IMG/VR virus record: IMGVR_UViG_2563367158_000001
From: a virus
Lineage: Duplodnaviria > Heunggongvirae > Uroviricota > Caudoviricetes
Length of the DNA: 35,389 nt
Strand: one strand, 5' to 3'
The position numbers and the translations under genes are program-made. The notes beneath the pieces were generated by a model. The model saw nothing but the letters and a program-made list of their open reading frames with translations. It did not search any database and had not been told where the DNA came from. Positions 2,850-8,404 of the stretch are shown here, in pieces. The stretch's first letter is position 1. Each line of letters opens with the position of its first letter.

Positions 2850-3154
2850 TATTTCACCTCTTGCTGTGATATTGTTGAAAAATGAATGCCAGCTCGTTGT
2901 TGCCAGACGATCCAACCGAGAGTCATATCCCATGCCATGTATTCGTTATCGCCGTTTTTTGCTCTCCGACTATCTACTAAGCCACCGAAACGTTTTTCCA
3001 TAAATAATTCATAGGATTCGCGTTCATCTGGCTCTACTTCCAGAGATAGGAGTGCGATTTCATAAGCACGGCGCTCAATATCGTCTCGCACGTCAAGGCT
3101 GCTGATACGCTCTTTGATTTCTTTAATCAGTTCTTTGTCGGTAAAAGTGGTCAT
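2849..3154 (-). CDS. hypothetical early-left protein
   Basis: 101-aa ORF, translationally coupled to flanking genes in the int-proximal minus-strand operon. Confidence 0.5.
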   Translation of the reverse strand: MTTFTDKELIKEIKERISSLDVRDDIERRAYEIALLSLEVEPDERESYELFMEKRFGGLVDSRRAKNGDNEYMAWDMTLGWIVWQQRAGIHFSTISQQEVK

Positions 3155-3516
3155 TATGCTCCAGCCTCCGGTGCTTTTGGCATTACTGCCCAGTGAGTGA
3201 TATTGACGTTTTCAAGGTCCCCGACCTGAAATGTCCACTGCCAGTCTCCGGTTTCTTTTTGTCCCCAGGTGTACCAGAGAGAACGCCAGCCAATTAGCCA
3301 GCCTTCTCCGTTAGCATCGAATAACAAAACACTTTCATTTGCTGGTGGCAGTTCAGTTGACACTGGTATTACTTTGTTTTCCAGTGCCGCACATTTAGCT
3401 TCAAGCGCATCGAATTTACGCACCAGGTATTCAGCATCCGTTTCATTCACTTTCAGATCTCGCGGTACACATTTCCCGCGAAGAAACCCTTCCATTTCGA
3501 AAACATTCATGCGCAT
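3154..3516 (-). CDS. DUF551-like phage protein
   Basis: 120-aa ORF with Trp-rich core and C-terminal THWAVMPKAPE resembling the DUF551 signature; operon context. Confidence 0.55.
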   Translation of the reverse strand: MRMNVFEMEGFLRGKCVPRDLKVNETDAEYLVRKFDALEAKCAALENKVIPVSTELPPANESVLLFDANGEGWLIGWRSLWYTWGQKETGDWQWTFQVGDLENVNITHWAVMPKAPEAGA

Positions 3517-4043
3517 TTGCGTAACTCCGATAACTCGTTAAAACGTTCCATAAACATCCCGTAGGCATGGCCTGGCGACAGTGGAATAACTTTGAACATC
3601 TCTGTTGCTGGGATACCTTCCAGTAGAGGCCAGAAAGAGCCATCATCAAGCCCGAGATCGCGGCGTTCGGTTGCCAGCATGATGAGATCGGCATATTTCA
3701 CGGGCGTGCTCATAACCGGGGGTAACCCGTATTTCTCACGGATTACGGCGTCTATTTTTTCTTCCATCCGTTTATAGTCAGGAAGAAGGCGTTTCAGTTG
3801 CGCGGGGATGTCCTGACAATACGCTTCTGTTGCATCATGCATTAACGCTTCAAAGGCGAACTCTGGCGCCACAAGTTGACTGCACAGAACGGAATGCTGC
3901 GCCACGCTGTAAAAATCCGGCAAGTGTCCCGCGAAGCGGCAGATATTTGAAAGCGCACCGGCGATATCCTCGATATAAATATCGTCAATGGTGGAGTTGA
4001 TATAATTGAACTTCTTACCGGTAAGAGTCTGGATAAAACTCAT
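3507..4043 (-). CDS. HD-domain phosphohydrolase (5'-deoxynucleotidase-like)
   Basis: 178-aa ORF with H...HD metal-binding motif (AQHSV ... MHDATEAY) characteristic of the HD superfamily; AGGAG-like RBS upstream. Confidence 0.75.
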   Translation of the reverse strand: MSFIQTLTGKKFNYINSTIDDIYIEDIAGALSNICRFAGHLPDFYSVAQHSVLCSQLVAPEFAFEALMHDATEAYCQDIPAQLKRLLPDYKRMEEKIDAVIREKYGLPPVMSTPVKYADLIMLATERRDLGLDDGSFWPLLEGIPATEMFKVIPLSPGHAYGMFMERFNELSELRKCA

Positions 4044-4200
4044 CGTTAGTTCTCCTTAATTGGTGCGCTGCACCGCACGATTTTTGGTTGCACGAATCCC
4101 TCGCCATAAGGCGATTAAAAGTTTTGGTTTCGTTTCAGTAAATGCCCCATCCAGAGGCACTTAGTGCAACGGGCGGCTGCCATCGCCAGTTATTTTCCCC

Positions 4201-4285
4201 ACTCAATTGAAAGCGCGTTCCGGAGGTTTTGGACTTAACGAACTGGCACTTAATGACAAGGGACAGAACGCGCTTTCAGTTGAGT
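4201..4285. repeat. inverted repeat: 20-bp arms (19/20 complementary) separated by 45 bp
   Basis: ACTCAATTGAAAGCGCGTTC (4201-4220) and GAACGCGCTTTCAGTTGAGT (4266-4285) are reverse complements with one mismatch; lies in a 420-bp non-coding gap. Confidence 0.6.
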
Positions 4286-4433
4286 AAAAAGGTGGCTATT
4301 CATCAGAACATTGTCGCCTTCATTAGGTTTATCTGTTGAAGATCTGTAAGCCGCTTATAAATAAGTAGATATAAGATATTAGGAAAAGAAGAAGGACGTT
4401 ATAGTTTTATTTGTGATGTGCAAAGTATATTTG

Positions 4434-4456
4434 AATAAAACCCGCCCAGCGGGTTC
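4434..4456 (-). terminator. rho-independent terminator downstream of the membrane-protein gene
   Basis: Minus-strand hairpin CCCGC-TGG-GCGGG followed by a U-tract (plus strand AATAAAACCCGCCCAGCGGGTT), 10 nt after the stop of 4466..5062. Confidence 0.6.
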
Positions 4457-4465
4457 TAAAGTGTT

Positions 4466-5062
4466 TTAATGATTGTCGTAATAATTAATTGGCTCATCAT
4501 TTTTTTGGTCTGGCATAGTTATGGACCACTTTATATTCTTTAGGCTGTTATGTTTTTTATTGACCTTAAGCTCTCTCTTTGCTTCAGAGATAATATCGTC
4601 TAGTAATACTTTTAATTTATCAAGTCTTGACTTGTGGGCATCTATCAACTCTATACTATCAAACTCCCATTGTATAAATAGATTTTCTTCATTTTCAATG
4701 AATGAACGGATTTTATCCCCACACTCTTCTGTTAAGAATAATGAAGATAGCTCACCTATTCTACTGAGTTTTTCAAGCTCATTAGAGAAAGATTTGCTAA
4801 GGATTTCATTTTCTTCTTTTGATTTGTAACTAAAGTAGGTTGGGAATTGTGAAGCGTGATGTAACTCATGTTTATACCAATAGTCAGCTGTGTTTTTTAG
4901 AAGATAAACACAGTCAACTAATTGCGTATACAAATCTATTCTTTTGTCCCACCATTTTTCTTTATAATAACGGCCGAGTGCATATCGCGCAGTTAAGTAA
5001 GCTGCGATTGAGCCTGTAACAAGTCCGATAATTACCTTTGATATAAGGTCATGCCAATCCAT
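4466..5062 (-). CDS. hypothetical single-pass membrane protein in an AT-rich insertion; candidate exclusion or abortive-infection factor
   Basis: 198-aa ORF; N-terminal hydrophobic helix (IIGLVTGSIAAYLTARYAL) then an aromatic- and Lys/Glu-rich domain; about 30% GC by eye; own terminator; AT-rich leader upstream. Confidence 0.7.
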   Translation of the reverse strand: MDWHDLISKVIIGLVTGSIAAYLTARYALGRYYKEKWWDKRIDLYTQLVDCVYLLKNTADYWYKHELHHASQFPTYFSYKSKEENEILSKSFSNELEKLSRIGELSSLFLTEECGDKIRSFIENEENLFIQWEFDSIELIDAHKSRLDKLKVLLDDIISEAKRELKVNKKHNSLKNIKWSITMPDQKNDEPINYYDNH

Positions 5063-5479
5063 TTTTATTTTTCCTACATTATGTTATATAATTGTTCATA
5101 TCATACAATTGTTGAGTATAGATGTCTCGTTATTCATCAACATTTACTCCTGTTAAATTAGGGGGAGTATGTATTAAAAATATTCATCTGGGTCGTCTAA
5201 ATATTTTTGATAAACTAATAGCAATAACACTATCAATATTGCCTGCCCTCACGTCGTTCTTGCTCTCGCGCGATTTTTAACTAAACACTAGCAGGATTTA
5301 TCATGGTGCTACGCTACATTTACTTGTAGGGAGCTAAACAGATCATTGACGCTGAAAATATTCAAATTGTTAAAGAGCGAAGCGTCCTATGGGCGTTTTG
5401 TTGCTAACGAATCATCTTGGACTTCATATGCCCCAGGCGGCTACTTCGTGGACGTCCTGCCTGTTTGTTGTTTCTCTTG

Positions 5480-5513
5480 GGTACATTATGTATCTCAAAG
5501 GTACATTGTCAAG
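5480..5513. promoter_or_regulatory. OL-like operator repeats (two GGTACA sites 20 bp apart)
   Basis: GGTACATTATGTAT and GGTACATTGTCAAG resemble GGTACATATTGTAT and the TGTACC/GGTACA palindromes in the cI-cro intergenic region. Confidence 0.4.
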
Positions 5514-5551: not shown

Positions 5552-6226
5552 TTAGGCTTTGATTTTGTATCTTCTTGGTTTTCCTGAGAAAATCACTGTA
5601 CCAATTATAGAGCAATTACCGTTGATCTTAATGTAAGGCTCAGGCCAGTTTGGGTTTAACGCTTTGAGATAACGCTGTGTCCCATCTTCTATCAACCTTT
5701 TGAAGGTGGTTTCACCTGTATCGTGCATCAATGCAATAACGTCGTCACCGTGGCAGGCAGGTACTTCAGGATCGACAAAAATCATGTCTCCCGGGCGGTA
5801 CTCATCAATCATTGAATCACCTATCACCCGCAAGATATAAGTCATTTCCCCACAGGGGACAGGGCAGGGATACGTTTCTGCTGTGCTCAAATCAACCTCA
5901 GAATATCCAACTTCTTTCCATGCTCCGGCCTGTACCCATGATATGACAGGGACTAATGTGATTTGTTTATTAGTGATTGAAACATCAGGTTTTTTTGTGA
6001 TGTTCGTTGTCTGGTGTTCTTGATCGAGCCATCCGACAGGCAGGTCGAAACATTTTTCGATGTGTCGTGCCATGCTGTCACCGATATTTTTAGTAGCACC
6101 ATCTCCCATAAACCTGCTGGTCTGGGTTGGCTCGCGATCAATCATAGTGGCAAAGGAAGAATTCCCGCCAACACCATCTCTCAGTTTTCTGGCGTTAGAC
6201 CGCCGGATGTCATGGATTGTTTTCAT
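5552..6226 (-). CDS. cI: CI-type prophage repressor (HTH plus S24 LexA-like peptidase domain)
   Basis: 224-aa ORF; C-terminal GDSM...DGD...K region typical of self-cleaving S24 repressors; divergent to cro. Confidence 0.9.
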   Translation of the reverse strand: MKTIHDIRRSNARKLRDGVGGNSSFATMIDREPTQTSRFMGDGATKNIGDSMARHIEKCFDLPVGWLDQEHQTTNITKKPDVSITNKQITLVPVISWVQAGAWKEVGYSEVDLSTAETYPCPVPCGEMTYILRVIGDSMIDEYRPGDMIFVDPEVPACHGDDVIALMHDTGETTFKRLIEDGTQRYLKALNPNWPEPYIKINGNCSIIGTVIFSGKPRRYKIKA

Positions 6227-6241
6227 AACGAAATTAAAACC

Positions 6242-6316
6242 CTTGTACCGTTAAGGTACAAGTATCTTGAAGGTTCATTTCAATCATGTAATATGTACAT
6301 CGGAGGTACATATTGT
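6242..6316. promoter_or_regulatory. OR operator / PR-PRM region
   Basis: 8-bp inverted arms CTTGTACC/GGTACAAG with a 5-bp spacer (6242-6262), a second TGTACA-N5-GGTACA pair 50 bp downstream, and a sigma70-like PR (TTGAAG-N16-TAATAT, 6267-6294) before the cro RBS GGAGG. Confidence 0.6.
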
Positions 6317-7462: not shown

Positions 7463-8404
7463 ATGAGCACTAAATTAACCGGCTATGTATGGGATGGTTG
7501 CGCTGCGTCAGGCATGAAATTATCCAGCGTGGCAATTATGGCCCGCCTGGCTGATTTCAGTAATGACGAAGGTGTGTGCTGGCCATCAATTGAAACCATT
7601 GCCCGTCAGATTGGCGCGGGGATGAGTACCGTCAGAACGGCTATCGCACGGCTGGAAGCAGAAGGCTGGTTAACGCGTAAGGCGCGTCGCCAGGGTAACC
7701 GCAATGCGTCGAATGTTTATCAGCTTAACGTTGCGAAGCTTCAGGCAGCGGCATTTTCTCAACTGTCAGATTCTGACCCGTCAAAATCTGACGCATCAAA
7801 ATCTGACCCGTCAAAATTTGATGCGTCGAAATCTGGCAAAAAAGCGGGTTTTCACCCGTCAGAATCTGGCGGGGATCCGTCAGTAAAATCAAAACATGAT
7901 CCGTCAGATAAAAAAACTTCTCGTCCGGACGCTTCGCAACCGGACACGCAGACGGCTGAACAGGAGTTTTTAACTCGCCATCCTGATGCGGTTGTATTCA
8001 GCCCTAAAAAGCGCCAGTGGGGAACGCAGGATGATTTGACCTGCGCACAGTGGCTCTGGAAAAAAATCATCGCCCTGTACGAGCAGGCCGCCGAATGTGA
8101 CGGCGAGGTGGTTCGTCCCAAAGAACCGAACTGGACAGCCTGGGCAAACGAAATTCGCCTGATGTGTGTGCAGGATGGTCGTACTCACAAACAAATCTGC
8201 GAGATGTACAGCCGCGTCAGCCGCGATCCGTTCTGGTGCCGTAACGTGCTCAGCCCGTCGAAGCTGCGGGAAAAATGGGATGAGCTTTCCCTGCGCTTAT
8301 CGCCGTCCGTCAGCACGTACACCGAAAAACGCGAAGACCCGTACTTCAAAGCCAGTTACGACAACGTGGACTACAGCCAGATCCCGGCAGGATTCAGGGG
8401 GTGA
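7463..8404 (+). CDS. replication initiation protein (N-terminal winged HTH, O-like), ori within gene
   Basis: 313-aa ORF; N-terminal HTH (SIETIARQIGAGMSTVRTAIARLEAEGWL); central low-complexity linker encoded by tandem DNA iterons. Confidence 0.75.
   Translation: MSTKLTGYVWDGCAASGMKLSSVAIMARLADFSNDEGVCWPSIETIARQIGAGMSTVRTAIARLEAEGWLTRKARRQGNRNASNVYQLNVAKLQAAAFSQLSDSDPSKSDASKSDPSKFDASKSGKKAGFHPSESGGDPSVKSKHDPSDKKTSRPDASQPDTQTAEQEFLTRHPDAVVFSPKKRQWGTQDDLTCAQWLWKKIIALYEQAAECDGEVVRPKEPNWTAWANEIRLMCVQDGRTHKQICEMYSRVSRDPFWCRNVLSPSKLREKWDELSLRLSPSVSTYTEKREDPYFKASYDNVDYSQIPAGFRG
7763..7837 (+). repeat. origin-like iterons: five tandem 15-bp repeats, consensus about CCGTCAAAATCTGAC
   Basis: Directly tandem copies at 7763, 7778, 7793, 7808 and 7823; three further degenerate CCGTCAG copies to 7914, then an A-rich tract; analogous to lambda ori inside O. 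Confidence 0.65.

What the first reader, a model, noticed from the sequence alone, without database searches (positions are those of the whole stretch)
4197..4285. Near-perfect 20-bp inverted repeat flanking a 45-bp spacer in the gap between the membrane-protein gene and the early-left operon
ACTCAATTGAAAGCGCGTTC (4201-4220) and GAACGCGCTTTCAGTTGAGT (4266-4285) are reverse complements with one mismatch. A 20-bp stem is far longer than a terminator needs and sits about 150 nt downstream of the island's real terminator. It could be a structured RNA, a protein-binding dyad site, or a miniature inverted-repeat remnant. Because it is adjacent to the candidate defence gene it may be functionally linked to it.
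Basis: seen in the sequence. Interest (0 to 1): 0.5.

Follow-up and report, generated by a model that had tools for sequence, protein, structure and literature searches.

The report
Conserved long hairpin in phage early-left leader
The inverted repeat is real and belongs to a widespread family of long RNA hairpins in the untranslated leader of the early-left operon of lambda-like phages; it is most likely a cutting site for the host enzyme RNase III, and it is not tied to the neighbouring "defence" gene.

Summary
The 20-nt inverted repeat (4201-4220 / 4266-4285, 19/20 complementary, 45-nt spacer) is real. It is the only such repeat in the window and appeared in none of 100 shuffles. The window is an SfII/SfIV/SfV-type lambdoid prophage. 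pL lies at 5512-5485 on the - strand, so the repeat sits in the leader of the leftward early operon, 157 nt upstream of its first gene.

About 95 nt (4196-4290) are nearly identical in prophages whose flanking genes differ. Diverged copies keep the stem through paired substitutions. Cultured phages (mEp390, Flotzy, SfIV, a Klebsiella phage), the K-12 Qin prophage and many uncultured phage contigs have a long hairpin at the same leader position. The stem sequences fall into at least five unrelated classes. In most relatives the hairpin starts at the last U of an sRNA-type terminator (RprA-3'/DicF-like).

In K-12 Qin the published RNase III cut that makes 72-nt DicF falls about 12 nt into the equivalent stem. 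The best reading is therefore an RNase III processing hairpin in the pL read-through transcript (confidence 0.5). In this window the upstream sRNA module has decayed.

It is not a terminator, a MITE, an operator or a put or nut site, and it is not linked to the adjacent 198-aa gene. I rate it a new member of a known kind, of moderate interest.

The parts
4201..4285 (-). Core hairpin. The 5' arm on the operon (-) strand is 4285-4266, the 45-nt interior is 4265-4221, and the 3' arm is 4220-4201. 19 of 20 positions pair, with one C.A mismatch on the - strand that would be G.U on the + strand.
   Evidence: Class-A alignment: 25 pairs, 91.3% paired versus 34-55% when the partner is slid, 6 pairs changed on both sides.
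4196..4290 (-). Full element as modelled. The core stem gains two or three inner pairs (U.G, G-C). It also gains five outer pairs between the upstream U-tract (UUUUU, 4290-4286) and GGGGA (4200-4196). The outer pairs are U.G or U-A and can form only on the - strand.
   Evidence: RNAalifold consensus of 27 pairs. Covariance model R1 scores 111 bits on the - strand and 39 bits on the + strand. Outer pairs: 55 G.U against 5 A.C cells.
4234..4242 (-). Conserved loop motif (GUUCGUUAA here; AGUCGUUAAAU in diverged copies). UCGUU is invariant in all 27 distinct class-A sequences. The motif also occurs in the loop of the class-A-like hairpin upstream of dicF in K-12 Qin.
   Evidence: invariant columns T50 C51 G52 T53 T54
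4291..4375 (-). Decayed remnant of the sRNA-type terminator module that precedes the hairpin in relatives. The 3' half (GACAATGTTCTGATGAATAGCCACC + TTTTT) aligns with the expanded terminators of L367, L308 and L393. The 5' half pairs poorly, and the RprA-like GCUGUGUGUAGUC motif is absent.
4044..4195 (-). Rest of the conserved leader between the hairpin and the first gene. Small hairpins lie at 4172-4187, 4143-4159, 4101-4114 and 4063-4078. The Shine-Dalgarno AAGGAG is at 4057-4052 and the ATG at 4043-4041. This stretch is conserved with the TST3-type relatives even though the downstream gene differs.
3507..4043 (-). First gene of the early-left operon in this phage: an HD-family deoxyribonucleoside 5'-monophosphate phosphatase (YfdR-like).
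4436..4458 (-). Intrinsic-terminator-like hairpin (AACCCGC-TGG-GCGGGTT plus a T-rich tail) ending the inserted 198-aa gene. pL transcripts must read through it to reach the hairpin.
4466..5062 (-). 198-aa ORF inside a low-GC insert (about 4300-5365, GC 0.27-0.36). It matches PHROG 17948 (unknown function) and has no Pfam or PADLOC match. It is not part of the element, only its neighbour in this lineage.
5367..5379 (-). Perfect boxA (CGCTCTTTAACAA) in the pL leader, about 100 nt downstream of the promoter. Homology with the SfIV leader ends right after it.
5469..5512 (-). pL (TTGACA-16-CATAAT, 5512-5485), overlapped by two repressor operators (5469-5485 and 5489-5505). They are of the same TGTAC-N7-GTACA type as the three operators between cI and cro (6244-6310).

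Best explanation
The repeat encodes a long RNA hairpin on the - strand, inside the untranslated leader of the pL (early-left) transcript, 157 nt upstream of the first early-left gene. It is the class-A version of a hairpin that many lambdoid phages place at this point of the leader. In the usual arrangement, pL transcription first meets an sRNA-type module: a GU-rich motif identical to the 3' part of RprA, followed by a DicF-like terminator. Transcripts that stop there yield a small RNA. Transcripts that read through continue straight into the long hairpin, whose 5' arm begins at the last U of the terminator's U-tract. The hairpin offers about two turns of double-stranded RNA, which is the substrate size of RNase III. 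Cleavage in the stem would separate the upstream leader (small RNA and, in some phages, a tRNA-Arg) from the early-left mRNA and define that mRNA's 5' end. In this window a low-GC insert carrying the 198-aa gene has replaced the middle of the leader, and the sRNA module has decayed, so only the hairpin and the downstream leader are intact. Here the hairpin would process the pL read-through transcript between the inserted gene and the early-left genes, or it may be a relic. Shown: the repeat, its conservation, stem covariation, its position relative to pL and to the terminators, and the family across phages. Inferred: that it is transcribed from pL, that RNase III cuts it, and what follows from the cut.
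For: 1. The repeat is unique and not due to chance.

2. The regulatory map puts it in the pL transcript. Repressor operators occur at 6244-6310 and 5469-5505, and pL is at 5512-5485 on the - strand. No sigma-70-like promoter is found between pL and the first gene apart from sites inside the insert.

3. About 95 nt are roughly 97% identical in prophages whose flanks differ on both sides.

4. Within class A (27 distinct sequences), 25 pairs are 91.3% paired versus 34-55% when slid. Six pairs changed on both sides. The covariation score is 0.160 against 0.110 in shuffles, exceeded by 0 of 500. An A.C mismatch is repaired to G-C in L279 and L390.

5. Across phages, 37 of 55 leader clusters sampled through an independent upstream motif have a long stem starting within 1 nt of the end of the terminator U-tract. 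24 clusters score at least 15, whereas no shuffled control scored above 14. The stem sequences fall into at least five unrelated classes, for example SfIV ACAAAACAGAGAAGAGCA/UGUUCUUCUCUGUUUUGU.

6. Strand. Outside class A, operon-strand G.U pairs far outnumber A.C. In class A the outer five pairs can form only on the operon strand, 55 G.U against 5 A.C. On the + strand no promoter is found in 3900-4200, and two terminator-like hairpins precede the repeat.

7. Experimental precedent. In K-12 Qin the 21-bp stem at L423 2443-2463 / 2575-2595 starts right after the DicF U-tract. RNase III processing of full-length dicBF mRNA gives a 72-nt DicF instead of the 53-nt terminated form (PMC5069750 and PMC9438474, citing Faubladier et al. 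1990). That places the cut about 12 nt into that stem.

8. The RNase III dimer accommodates about 22 bp of dsRNA (PMC6212723). The window's stem has 20-27 pairs.
Against: No cleavage data exist for this element or for any class-A member, so the RNase III step rests on analogy with a sequence-unrelated hairpin in Qin. Model R1 scores only 8.2 bits there.

In the class-A core stem the non-Watson-Crick cells are mostly C.A or A.C on the operon strand, 43 against 16 G.U. That is the pattern expected if the opposite strand were the folded RNA, or if the mismatches are themselves functional. The C.A at column pair 12/87 is conserved in 22 of 27 sequences.

The invariant loop motif UCGUU(AAA) is not needed for RNase III recognition and points to an additional or different sequence-specific interaction.

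In this window the upstream sRNA module, which gives the processing site its clearest purpose, has decayed. A terminator at 4436-4458 lies between pL and the hairpin, so transcription of the hairpin depends on read-through that I did not demonstrate.

Confidence: 0.5

Rival explanations
1. It is a structural hairpin that works without RNase III. As a stable helix in the leader it would protect the early-left mRNA or the upstream RNA from exonucleases or RNase E, sequester the terminator's U-tract (an Hfq-binding site) in read-through transcripts, or hinder Rho loading.
For: The helix extends into the U-tract through U.G and U-A pairs that are conserved across classes. It is the dominant helix when the whole leader is folded. 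Conservation is of structure and not of stem sequence.
Against: Stems of 19-26 pairs are much longer than stabiliser hairpins need and match the RNase III footprint. The only experimentally studied member of the positional family is cut by RNase III (PMC5069750).
Confidence: 0.15
2. It is a binding platform for a specific protein or RNA. The stem would present the conserved loop motif (A)GUCGUUAAAU to a phage or host factor, for example an N-like antiterminator with Nus factors, or Hfq or ProQ. The element would then be part of an antitermination (nut-like) or riboregulatory site.
For: UCGUU is invariant in all 27 class-A sequences, including variants that have lost the 3' half of the loop. 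The motif recurs in the K-12 Qin hairpin upstream of dicF and once more in the mEp390 leader, outside any hairpin. It matches boxA in 6 of 8 positions. boxB-like hairpins (GCCGGGAAAGACCGGC) occur in the same leaders.
Against: Other classes at the same position have entirely different loops. The motif carries G at the position where the lambda boxA mutation U39G weakens NusB:NusE binding and inhibits N (PMC2800207). The window already has a perfect boxA at 5367-5379. In relatives the element lies downstream of the terminator it would be expected to override.
Confidence: 0.13
3. The folded RNA is made from the opposite (+) strand, as an antisense RNA to the early-left leader.
For: In the class-A core stem most mismatches on the operon strand are C.A or A.C, which are G.U pairs on the + strand: 43 against 16. 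In the window the + strand stem is uninterrupted.
Against: No promoter-like site is found on the + strand in 3900-4200, and two terminator-like hairpins (4061-4075 and 4172-4187) precede the repeat on that strand. The outer five pairs form only on the - strand. The model scores 111 bits on the - strand and 39 on the + strand because the loop is conserved in one orientation. In the other classes G.U pairs favour the operon strand. The Qin precedent is on the operon strand.
Confidence: 0.08
4. It acts at the DNA level, as a dyad-symmetric protein-binding site or a cruciform or recombination hotspot that marks a module boundary.
For: Homology breakpoints between phages fall close to the element. 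Each arm contains a near-palindrome, GAAAGCGCGTTC. Complementary changes in both arms would also preserve a DNA dyad.
Against: The arm sequence has no other copy in the window. The hairpin class does not follow the repressor or immunity type: the window and SfIV share cI, operators and pL leader but have class A and class B hairpins. Arms 65 bp apart centre to centre, with five unrelated arm sequences at the same position, do not fit a sequence-specific site. The extension of the stem by G.U pairs has no meaning in duplex DNA.
Confidence: 0.05
5. It is a functionless relic in this particular phage. The hairpin is real in relatives, but here it is only carried along after the leader was disrupted by the insert.
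For: The upstream sRNA module has decayed. The upstream paralogous hairpin E2 is absent. About 1 kb of low-GC DNA has replaced the middle of the leader.
Against: The hairpin and the 150-nt leader downstream of it are intact and about 97% identical to relatives, while the adjoining module has decayed. This recombinant leader is identical in 16 complete E. coli genomes and 6 viral contigs.
Confidence: 0.09

Closest known systems
RNase III processing site downstream of dicF in the dicBF operon of the Qin prophage (E. coli K-12)
   Same: Same place in the same kind of transcription unit: the repressor-controlled early-left-type operon of a lambdoid prophage. In Qin the long stem (21 bp) starts directly after the U-tract of an sRNA terminator and precedes the next gene. 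My sampling through the conserved upstream motif recovered Qin-type leaders (class E, followed by dicB) alongside class-A leaders. RNase III cutting of the read-through transcript is published (72-nt DicF; PMC5069750, PMC9438474).
   Different: There is no sequence similarity in stem or loop (R1 8.2 bits). The Qin stem encloses about 110 nt against 45 nt here. In the window the upstream sRNA module has decayed, so no sRNA is left to release. Cleavage of class-A hairpins has never been tested.
RNase III hairpin in the phage lambda N leader (between nutL and N)
   Same: It is also a hairpin in the pL leader, downstream of boxA and upstream of the first early-left gene. Lambda has a GU-rich stretch (GGUGUGUGAUAC) just before it, and the relatives have GCUGUGUGUAGUC. 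That RNase III processing of the lambda hairpin alters expression of the first gene is from my own knowledge of the literature (Kameyama et al. 1991) and was not checked here.
   Different: The lambda hairpin is about 40 nt with an interrupted stem of roughly 15 bp. It is not preceded by a terminator and shares no sequence with the element. The window's hairpin is a near-perfect stem of 20-27 bp around a 45-nt interior.
HK022 put antiterminator RNAs
   Same: Both are cis-acting structured RNAs in the early leaders of a lambdoid phage without an obvious N gene.
   Different: put is about 70 nt with two stem-loops in a V shape, lies upstream of the terminators it suppresses, and binds the RNA polymerase beta' zinc-binding domain (PMC9378689). 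The element here is a single long stem, lies downstream of the leader terminator, and has no match in HK022 (best R1 score 10.8 bits; no blastn similarity of the pL leader).
Phage T7 early and late mRNA RNase III sites (R1-R5)
   Same: These are phage-encoded hairpins between cistrons of a long transcript that serve as processing signals (from my own knowledge, not tested here).
   Different: T7 sites have an internal loop that directs a single cut and a small apical loop. There is no sequence or positional homology.

Membership tests
Post-terminator long hairpin of lambdoid early-left leaders (RNase III site of the dicF type) | An uninterrupted or nearly uninterrupted RNA stem of about two helical turns (about 20-22 bp) | tested here: met
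   19 of 20 core pairs and up to 27 pairs in the consensus fold. The RNase III footprint is about 22 bp (PMC6212723).
Post-terminator long hairpin of lambdoid early-left leaders (RNase III site of the dicF type) | Lies on the operon strand in the leader, between the repressor-controlled leftward promoter and the first early-left gene | tested here: met
   pL and the operators are mapped at 5469-5512 and the first gene starts at 4043. The position is the same in mEp390, Flotzy, SfIV, a Klebsiella phage and Qin.
Post-terminator long hairpin of lambdoid early-left leaders (RNase III site of the dicF type) | The 5' arm begins at the end of the U-tract of an sRNA-type intrinsic terminator | tested here: inconclusive
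   This is met in relatives (37 of 55 clusters; all non-window class-A copies). In the window the U-tract is present, but the terminator stem has decayed to about 4 bp and the GU-rich motif is lost.
Post-terminator long hairpin of lambdoid early-left leaders (RNase III site of the dicF type) | Structure is conserved through compensatory change | tested here: met
   Within class A there are 6 pairs with changes on both sides, and the covariation score exceeds all 500 shuffles. Between classes the stems are unrelated but fully complementary.
Post-terminator long hairpin of lambdoid early-left leaders (RNase III site of the dicF type) | Cleaved by RNase III in vivo or in vitro | not testable with these tools
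   Shown only for the Qin member (PMC5069750, PMC9438474, citing Faubladier 1990). The dicB operon is repressed in the published K-12 RNase III maps, and no supplementary data were held.
HK022 put antiterminator RNA | About 70 nt, two adjacent stem-loops, located upstream of the terminators it suppresses, with sequence similarity among put sites | tested here: not met
   The element is a single stem with a 45-nt interior. It lies downstream of the leader terminator. It has no match in HK022. put features are taken from PMC9378689.
nut site (boxA + boxB) | A single-stranded boxA (GCUCUUUAACAA or CGCUCUUA) followed by a short boxB hairpin with a GNRA-like loop | tested here: not met
   The loop motif UCGUUAAA matches boxA in 6 of 8 positions but has G at the position of the defective U39G mutation. 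There is no boxB-like short hairpin inside the element. A perfect boxA lies elsewhere, at 5367-5379.
Intrinsic (Rho-independent) terminator | A GC-rich hairpin with a short loop, immediately followed by a T-run | tested here: not met
   The terminator scan lists no site at 4196-4290 on either strand. The sequence after the stem is GGGGAAAATAA on the - strand and AAAAAGG on the + strand.
MITE / insertion-sequence remnant | Multiple dispersed copies per genome in unrelated contexts, with terminal inverted repeats flanked by a target-site duplication | tested here: not met
   There is one copy per genome in 22 of 5,426 E. coli genomes and one copy in the window. It is always in the early-left leader. 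The flanks TTTTT and GGGGA are not a duplication.
Repressor operator / dyad protein-binding site | The sequence recurs at the regulated promoters and co-varies with the DNA-binding protein | tested here: not met
   The operators of this phage are TGTAC-N7-GTACA, at 5469-5505 and 6244-6310. The arm sequence has no other copy. SfIV has the same repressor and operators but a different hairpin class.
Any curated Rfam family | A match at or near the family's gathering score | tested here: not met
   No hit overlaps 4196-4290 even at E up to 10.

The most novel reading that the evidence does not exclude
The long hairpins, one or two per leader (E2 upstream and E1 downstream), may form a conserved processing cassette. 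This cassette would turn the early-left leader of many lambdoid phages into a source of Hfq-type small RNAs that copy the 3' seed-and-terminator part of the host sRNA RprA or of DicF, and in some phages also a tRNA-Arg. On this reading, termination releases the sRNA early. After antitermination, RNase III cuts at the flanking hairpins and releases it from the long transcript. The invariant class-A loop motif would be a separate recognition site for a factor not yet known. The window's element would be the surviving downstream half of such a cassette.
Probability: 0.25. Interest if true: 0.6.

Novelty: new member of a known kind. Interest (0 to 1): 0.38.

Why it matters
For annotation, the result removes a tempting but wrong link between this repeat and the neighbouring candidate defence gene. 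It also gives a transferable rule: in SfV/SfIV-, mEp390-, Flotzy- and Qin-type prophages, a long hairpin directly after an sRNA-type terminator marks the start of the translated part of the early-left operon. Several database ORF calls overlap these RNA elements, for example SfIV gp34 and mEp390 gp36.

For biology, it extends a single 1990 observation (RNase III trimming of DicF in one cryptic prophage) to a broad, structurally conserved but sequence-diverse family. It also connects that family to RprA-like modules in phage leaders. If confirmed, this would mean that many temperate phages of enterobacteria couple early transcription to the release of host-mimicking small RNAs. That idea can be tested directly with rnc mutants and cultured phages such as mEp390 or Flotzy.

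Tried and rejected
1. Intrinsic terminator: rejected, because no T-run follows on either strand.

2. MITE or generic repeat: rejected, because the element is single-copy, rare and always in the same context.

3. Operator or dyad site: rejected. The operators were identified elsewhere, and the hairpin class does not follow the repressor.

4. Promoter inside the 45-nt interior (TTGTCA-16-TAAATC on the - strand): rejected. It is below the scan threshold, and the -35-like hexamer is not conserved in L006 or in the mEp390-type copies.

5. Invertible segment: the interior has the same orientation relative to the flanks in every copy.

6. HK022 put-like RNA: different architecture and position, and no similarity.

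7. boxA in the loop: 6 of 8 match, but with a known defective substitution.

8. RfaH ops similarity of the upstream terminator (GGCGGTA...): not conserved in SfIV or Flotzy, so I treated it as coincidence.

9. tRNA-like origin of the loop (GTTCGTTAAATCC against the T-loop): ARAGORN finds no tRNA there, and I did not pursue it.

10. The genome-contig scan with TGAAAGCGC-N(45-61)-GCGCTTTCA was too loose.

11. Rfam membership of the upstream module. RprA scores 43.2 bits in Flotzy against a gathering score of 70. DicF scores 14.6 bits, E 1.6, in L005. mEp390 gives nothing. I therefore describe the module only as sRNA-like.

12. Transcriptome-wide RNase III maps of K-12 gave no data for the dicB operon.

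13. The original papers by Faubladier 1990 and Faubladier and Bouche 1994 are not held, so the cleavage position is taken from secondary sources.
Full report
OBSERVATION

The arms are 4201-4220 (ACTCAATTGAAAGCGCGTTC) and 4266-4285 (GAACGCGCTTTCAGTTGAGT). They are 19/20 complementary and 45 nt apart. It is the only inverted repeat of this quality in the 35-kb window, and none appeared in 100 dinucleotide-preserving shuffles. As RNA, either strand folds better than all 200 shuffles: z = -3.45 on the + strand and -4.81 on the - strand. No Rfam family matches it even at E up to 10.

WHERE IT SITS

The window is an SfII/SfIV/SfV-type lambdoid prophage of E. coli, about 96% identical to these phages over two-thirds of the first 12 kb. 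The 411 bp around the repeat are identical in 16 complete E. coli genomes.

The repressor gene (LexA-family cI, 5552-6226, - strand) and the cro-like gene flank three operators of the form TGTAC-N7-GTACA, at 6244-6310. Two more operators at 5469-5505 overlap a strong leftward promoter, TTGACA-16-CATAAT at 5512-5485. That promoter is pL.

Downstream of pL on the - strand come, in order:
- a conserved leader with a perfect boxA, CGCTCTTTAACAA, at 5367-5379
- a low-GC insert (about 4300-5365, GC 0.27-0.36) carrying a 198-aa ORF (4466-5062) and a terminator-like hairpin (4436-4458)
- the repeat
- 157 nt of further leader with small hairpins and a Shine-Dalgarno sequence
- the first early-left gene, an HD-family dNMP phosphatase (3507-4043)

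The repeat is therefore part of the 5' leader of the early-left operon, and the - strand is the transcribed strand.

IT IS A CONSERVED MODULE, NOT TIED TO ITS UPSTREAM NEIGHBOUR

In other E. coli prophages, roughly window 4199-4292 is about 97% identical while both flanks differ. The upstream neighbours include tRNA-Arg, sieB, a BRCT-domain gene and an ECs1072-family gene. The downstream genes may be a ParB-like operon instead of the phosphatase.

The element is rare: 22 of 5,426 E. coli genomes, one copy each. The phage isolate collection gave no match to this version. About 52 uncultured viral contigs carry it. The arm sequence has no second copy in the window. The 198-aa neighbour has no Pfam or PADLOC match and falls in a PHROG of unknown function. 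None of this supports a functional link between the repeat and that gene.

THE STEM IS UNDER STRUCTURAL SELECTION

A covariance model built from 18 distinct copies found diverged homologues, at 48-57 bits against about 120 for close copies. They lie at the same place upstream of ParB-type left operons in viral contigs and in the cultured coliphage mEp390.

In an alignment of 27 distinct class-A sequences, the 25 tested pairs are 91.3% paired, against 34-55% when the partner is slid. Six pairs changed on both sides. The covariation score is 0.160 against 0.110 +/- 0.008 in shuffles, exceeded by 0 of 500. Examples are U-A to A-U at column pair 8/91 and A.C repaired to G-C at 16/83.

Three variants have lost 10-12 nt of the 3' half of the interior, so that part is dispensable. 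UCGUU within the motif (A)GUCGUUAAAU is invariant.

A WIDER FAMILY

Relatives carry a second, paralogous hairpin (E2) 160-250 nt upstream. It shares the outer stem words, has a compensated inner stem (GCGCACUCC/GGAGUGCGC) and has an unrelated loop. The window lacks it.

Between E2 and the homologue of our element (E1) lies a conserved GU-rich motif, GCUGUGUGUAGUCUU, then a hairpin with a U-tract. Some prophages also have a tRNA-Arg there.

I scanned viral contigs for that motif alone, which does not depend on the hairpin sequence. The scan returned more than 120 loci, which fell into 55 clusters. In 37 clusters a long stem begins within 1 nt of the last U of the U-tract. 24 clusters score at least 15. 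Shuffled controls averaged 7.3-9.1 per cluster and never exceeded 14.

The stems fall into at least five unrelated sequence classes:
- class A (the window): CACAACUGAAAGCGCGUUC...
- class B (SfIV, Flotzy): ACAAAACAGAGAAGAGCA/UGUUCUUCUCUGUUUUGU and variants
- class C: ACACAUCAGGUAGCGCACUGG/CCGGUGCGCUACCAGGUGUGU
- class D: ACUGCAUAUAAAGGCGGAUGCCGGA/UCCGGCAUCCGCCUUUGUAUGUAG
- class E: AAAGUGAAUUUUGUGAUGCGGUG/CACCGCAUCACAAAA(U/C)UCAUU

These are shown.

SfIV shares the window's repressor, operators and promoter-proximal leader but carries a class-B hairpin. The hairpin is therefore not a sequence-specific site matched to the immunity system.

THE sRNA CONNECTION AND THE EXPERIMENTAL PRECEDENT

The GU-rich motif plus terminator is, in some phages almost base for base, the 3' part of the host small RNA RprA. 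The RprA sequence is given in PMC7311995. Rfam RprA scores 43.2 bits, E 6e-4, on the Flotzy leader, which is below the gathering score of 70. The host rprA gene is not followed by a long hairpin.

Class E is the dicF-dicB spacer of Qin-type prophages, because the ORF after the hairpin begins like DicB. In K-12, a 21-bp stem (L423 2443-2463 with 2575-2595) follows immediately after the DicF terminator.

The published biogenesis of DicF is as follows. [quoted passage not shown] 1990). Seventy-two nucleotides from the annotated 5' end is position 2454, about 12 nt into the 5' arm of that stem.

The RNase III dimer accommodates about 22 bp (PMC6212723). K-12 Qin also has, about 120 nt upstream of dicF, a hairpin with class-A stem words and the class-A loop motif (CUGUCGUUAAAU). 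The model scores it only 12.7 bits.

WHAT REMAINS IN THE WINDOW

Alignment with relatives that have expanded terminators shows that window 4291 to about 4375 is a decayed remnant of the sRNA-type terminator. The 3' half and the U-tract are recognisable. The 5' half pairs over only about 4 bp, and the GU-rich motif is gone. Homology with the SfIV leader stops right after boxA.

The low-GC insert has therefore replaced the middle of the ancestral leader. The hairpin and the 150-nt leader downstream of it are intact.

MECHANISM

The best-supported reading is that the element is an RNA hairpin in the pL read-through transcript that serves as an RNase III processing site. In the ancestral arrangement, cleavage would separate the upstream leader RNAs (the sRNA, and sometimes a tRNA) from the early-left mRNA and set that mRNA's 5' end. 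In this window only the second role can remain.

The anatomy, conservation, covariation and family are shown by the analyses above. Transcription of the element from pL, cleavage by RNase III and the consequences of cleavage are inferred.

CAVEATS

First, the RNase III step rests on analogy with a sequence-unrelated hairpin.

Second, in the class-A core stem the non-Watson-Crick cells are mostly C.A or A.C on the operon strand, 43 against 16 G.U. One C.A is conserved in 22 of 27 sequences. This could mean the opposite strand is the folded RNA, or that the mismatches are functional, for example by steering cleavage. Four observations argue against the opposite strand:
- No promoter is found on the + strand in 3900-4200, and two terminator-like hairpins precede the repeat on that strand.
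- The five outer pairs (U-tract with GGAGA or GGGGA) form only on the operon strand, 55 G.U against 5 A.C.
- G.U pairs favour the operon strand in the other classes (with the reservation that my stem finder allowed G.U and so leans that way).
- The loop is conserved in one orientation only.

Third, the invariant loop motif suggests a further sequence-specific interaction. It resembles boxA in 6 of 8 positions, but it has G where the lambda U39G mutation weakens NusB:NusE binding (PMC2800207).

Fourth, many class-A sequences are close relatives, so the number of independent compensatory events is small.

COMPARISON WITH KNOWN SYSTEMS AND NOVELTY

The closest known element is the RNase III site 3' of dicF in Qin. 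It has the same position and logic but a different sequence. The lambda N-leader RNase III hairpin is a looser analogue.

The element is not a put RNA: put has two stem-loops of about 70 nt and lies upstream of its terminators (PMC9378689). It is also not a nut site, a terminator, a MITE or an operator.

In the literature I could search, I found no description of this hairpin class, of the family-wide pattern, or of RprA-like modules in phage leaders. The two original Bouche-laboratory papers are not held, and the 1994 paper may have noted related sequences.

I therefore rate it a new member of a known kind. It is of moderate interest as a single locus. The family-wide reading, in which phage leaders act as processing cassettes for host-mimicking small RNAs, is more interesting, and I give it about one chance in four.

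Noticed in passing
window 5367-5379 (- strand): A perfect boxA (CGCTCTTTAACAA) lies about 100 nt downstream of pL. No counterpart with 2 or fewer mismatches lies on the rightward side, and there is no obvious N-like gene between pL and the insert. How this phage reads through its leader terminators is unresolved.
   Followed up: partly
L300 (Escherichia phage Flotzy) 2625-2761; also L323, L311, L216 4230-4165 (- strand) and most loci L302-L421: Many lambdoid early-left leaders contain a module nearly identical to the 3' seed-and-terminator part of the host sRNA RprA (GCUGUGUGUAGUCUUUGCCCAUC...GGGCUUUUUU). Rfam RprA scores 43.2 bits in Flotzy, below the gathering score. I found no description of phage-borne RprA-like modules in the papers I could search.
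   Followed up: partly
L005 4318-4394 (- strand); likewise L002, L004, L398: In several relatives a tRNA-Arg gene (or another tRNA) sits inside the leader, between the upstream hairpin E2 and the sRNA-type terminator and hairpin E1. The two long hairpins thus appear to flank a processing cassette.
   Followed up: no
L297 (mEp390) about 3005-3021; L323, L341, L343, L346, L358, L360, L410: boxB-like hairpins GCCGGGAAAGACCGGC occur once just before hairpin E2 in mEp390. They are repeated several times, together with GAGGAAAGACC, in a class of leaders that lacks the long hairpin. They may be nut-type sites for an unidentified antiterminator.
   Followed up: no
L297 (mEp390) 2729-2971; L216 (SfIV) 3663-4343: Database ORF calls overlap leader RNA elements. 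The reading frame of mEp390 gp36 (80 aa) is broken in the related prophage L006 although the nucleotides are conserved. The annotated start of SfIV gp34 lies upstream of the class-B hairpin, and the real start is probably the ATG near L216 4024.
   Followed up: partly
window 7767-7868: Nested inverted repeats (7767-7786/7849-7868 and 7790-7807/7810-7827) lie inside the replication-initiator-like gene 7463-8404. This is probably the phage replication origin.
   Followed up: no
window 4466-5062 and the surrounding 4300-5365: The 198-aa ORF sits in a low-GC (0.27-0.36) insert with its own promoter-like site (5128-5100) and terminator. It has no Pfam or PADLOC match and falls in PHROG 17948 (unknown function). 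The insert replaces the segment that in SfIV holds a small ORF and two oppositely oriented genes.
   Followed up: partly
L423 (E. coli K-12 Qin) 2173-2262: An unannotated hairpin lies between ydfC and dicF (CAUAACGCGAAAGCGCAUGG...CUGUCGUUAAAU...CCGUGCGCUUCCGGUUGUGG). It shares the stem words and the loop motif of the window's element. It may be a second processing site in the dicBF transcript.
   Followed up: partly
window 4049-4060 and 4188-4200 (- strand); class-A leaders in L304, L307, L359: The sequence GGAGAA(A/C)UAAC occurs twice in class-A leaders: directly after the long hairpin and again as the real Shine-Dalgarno region of the first gene. This suggests that the 150-nt stretch between them was inserted, with duplication, into an older leader in which the hairpin abutted the ribosome-binding site.
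   Followed up: no
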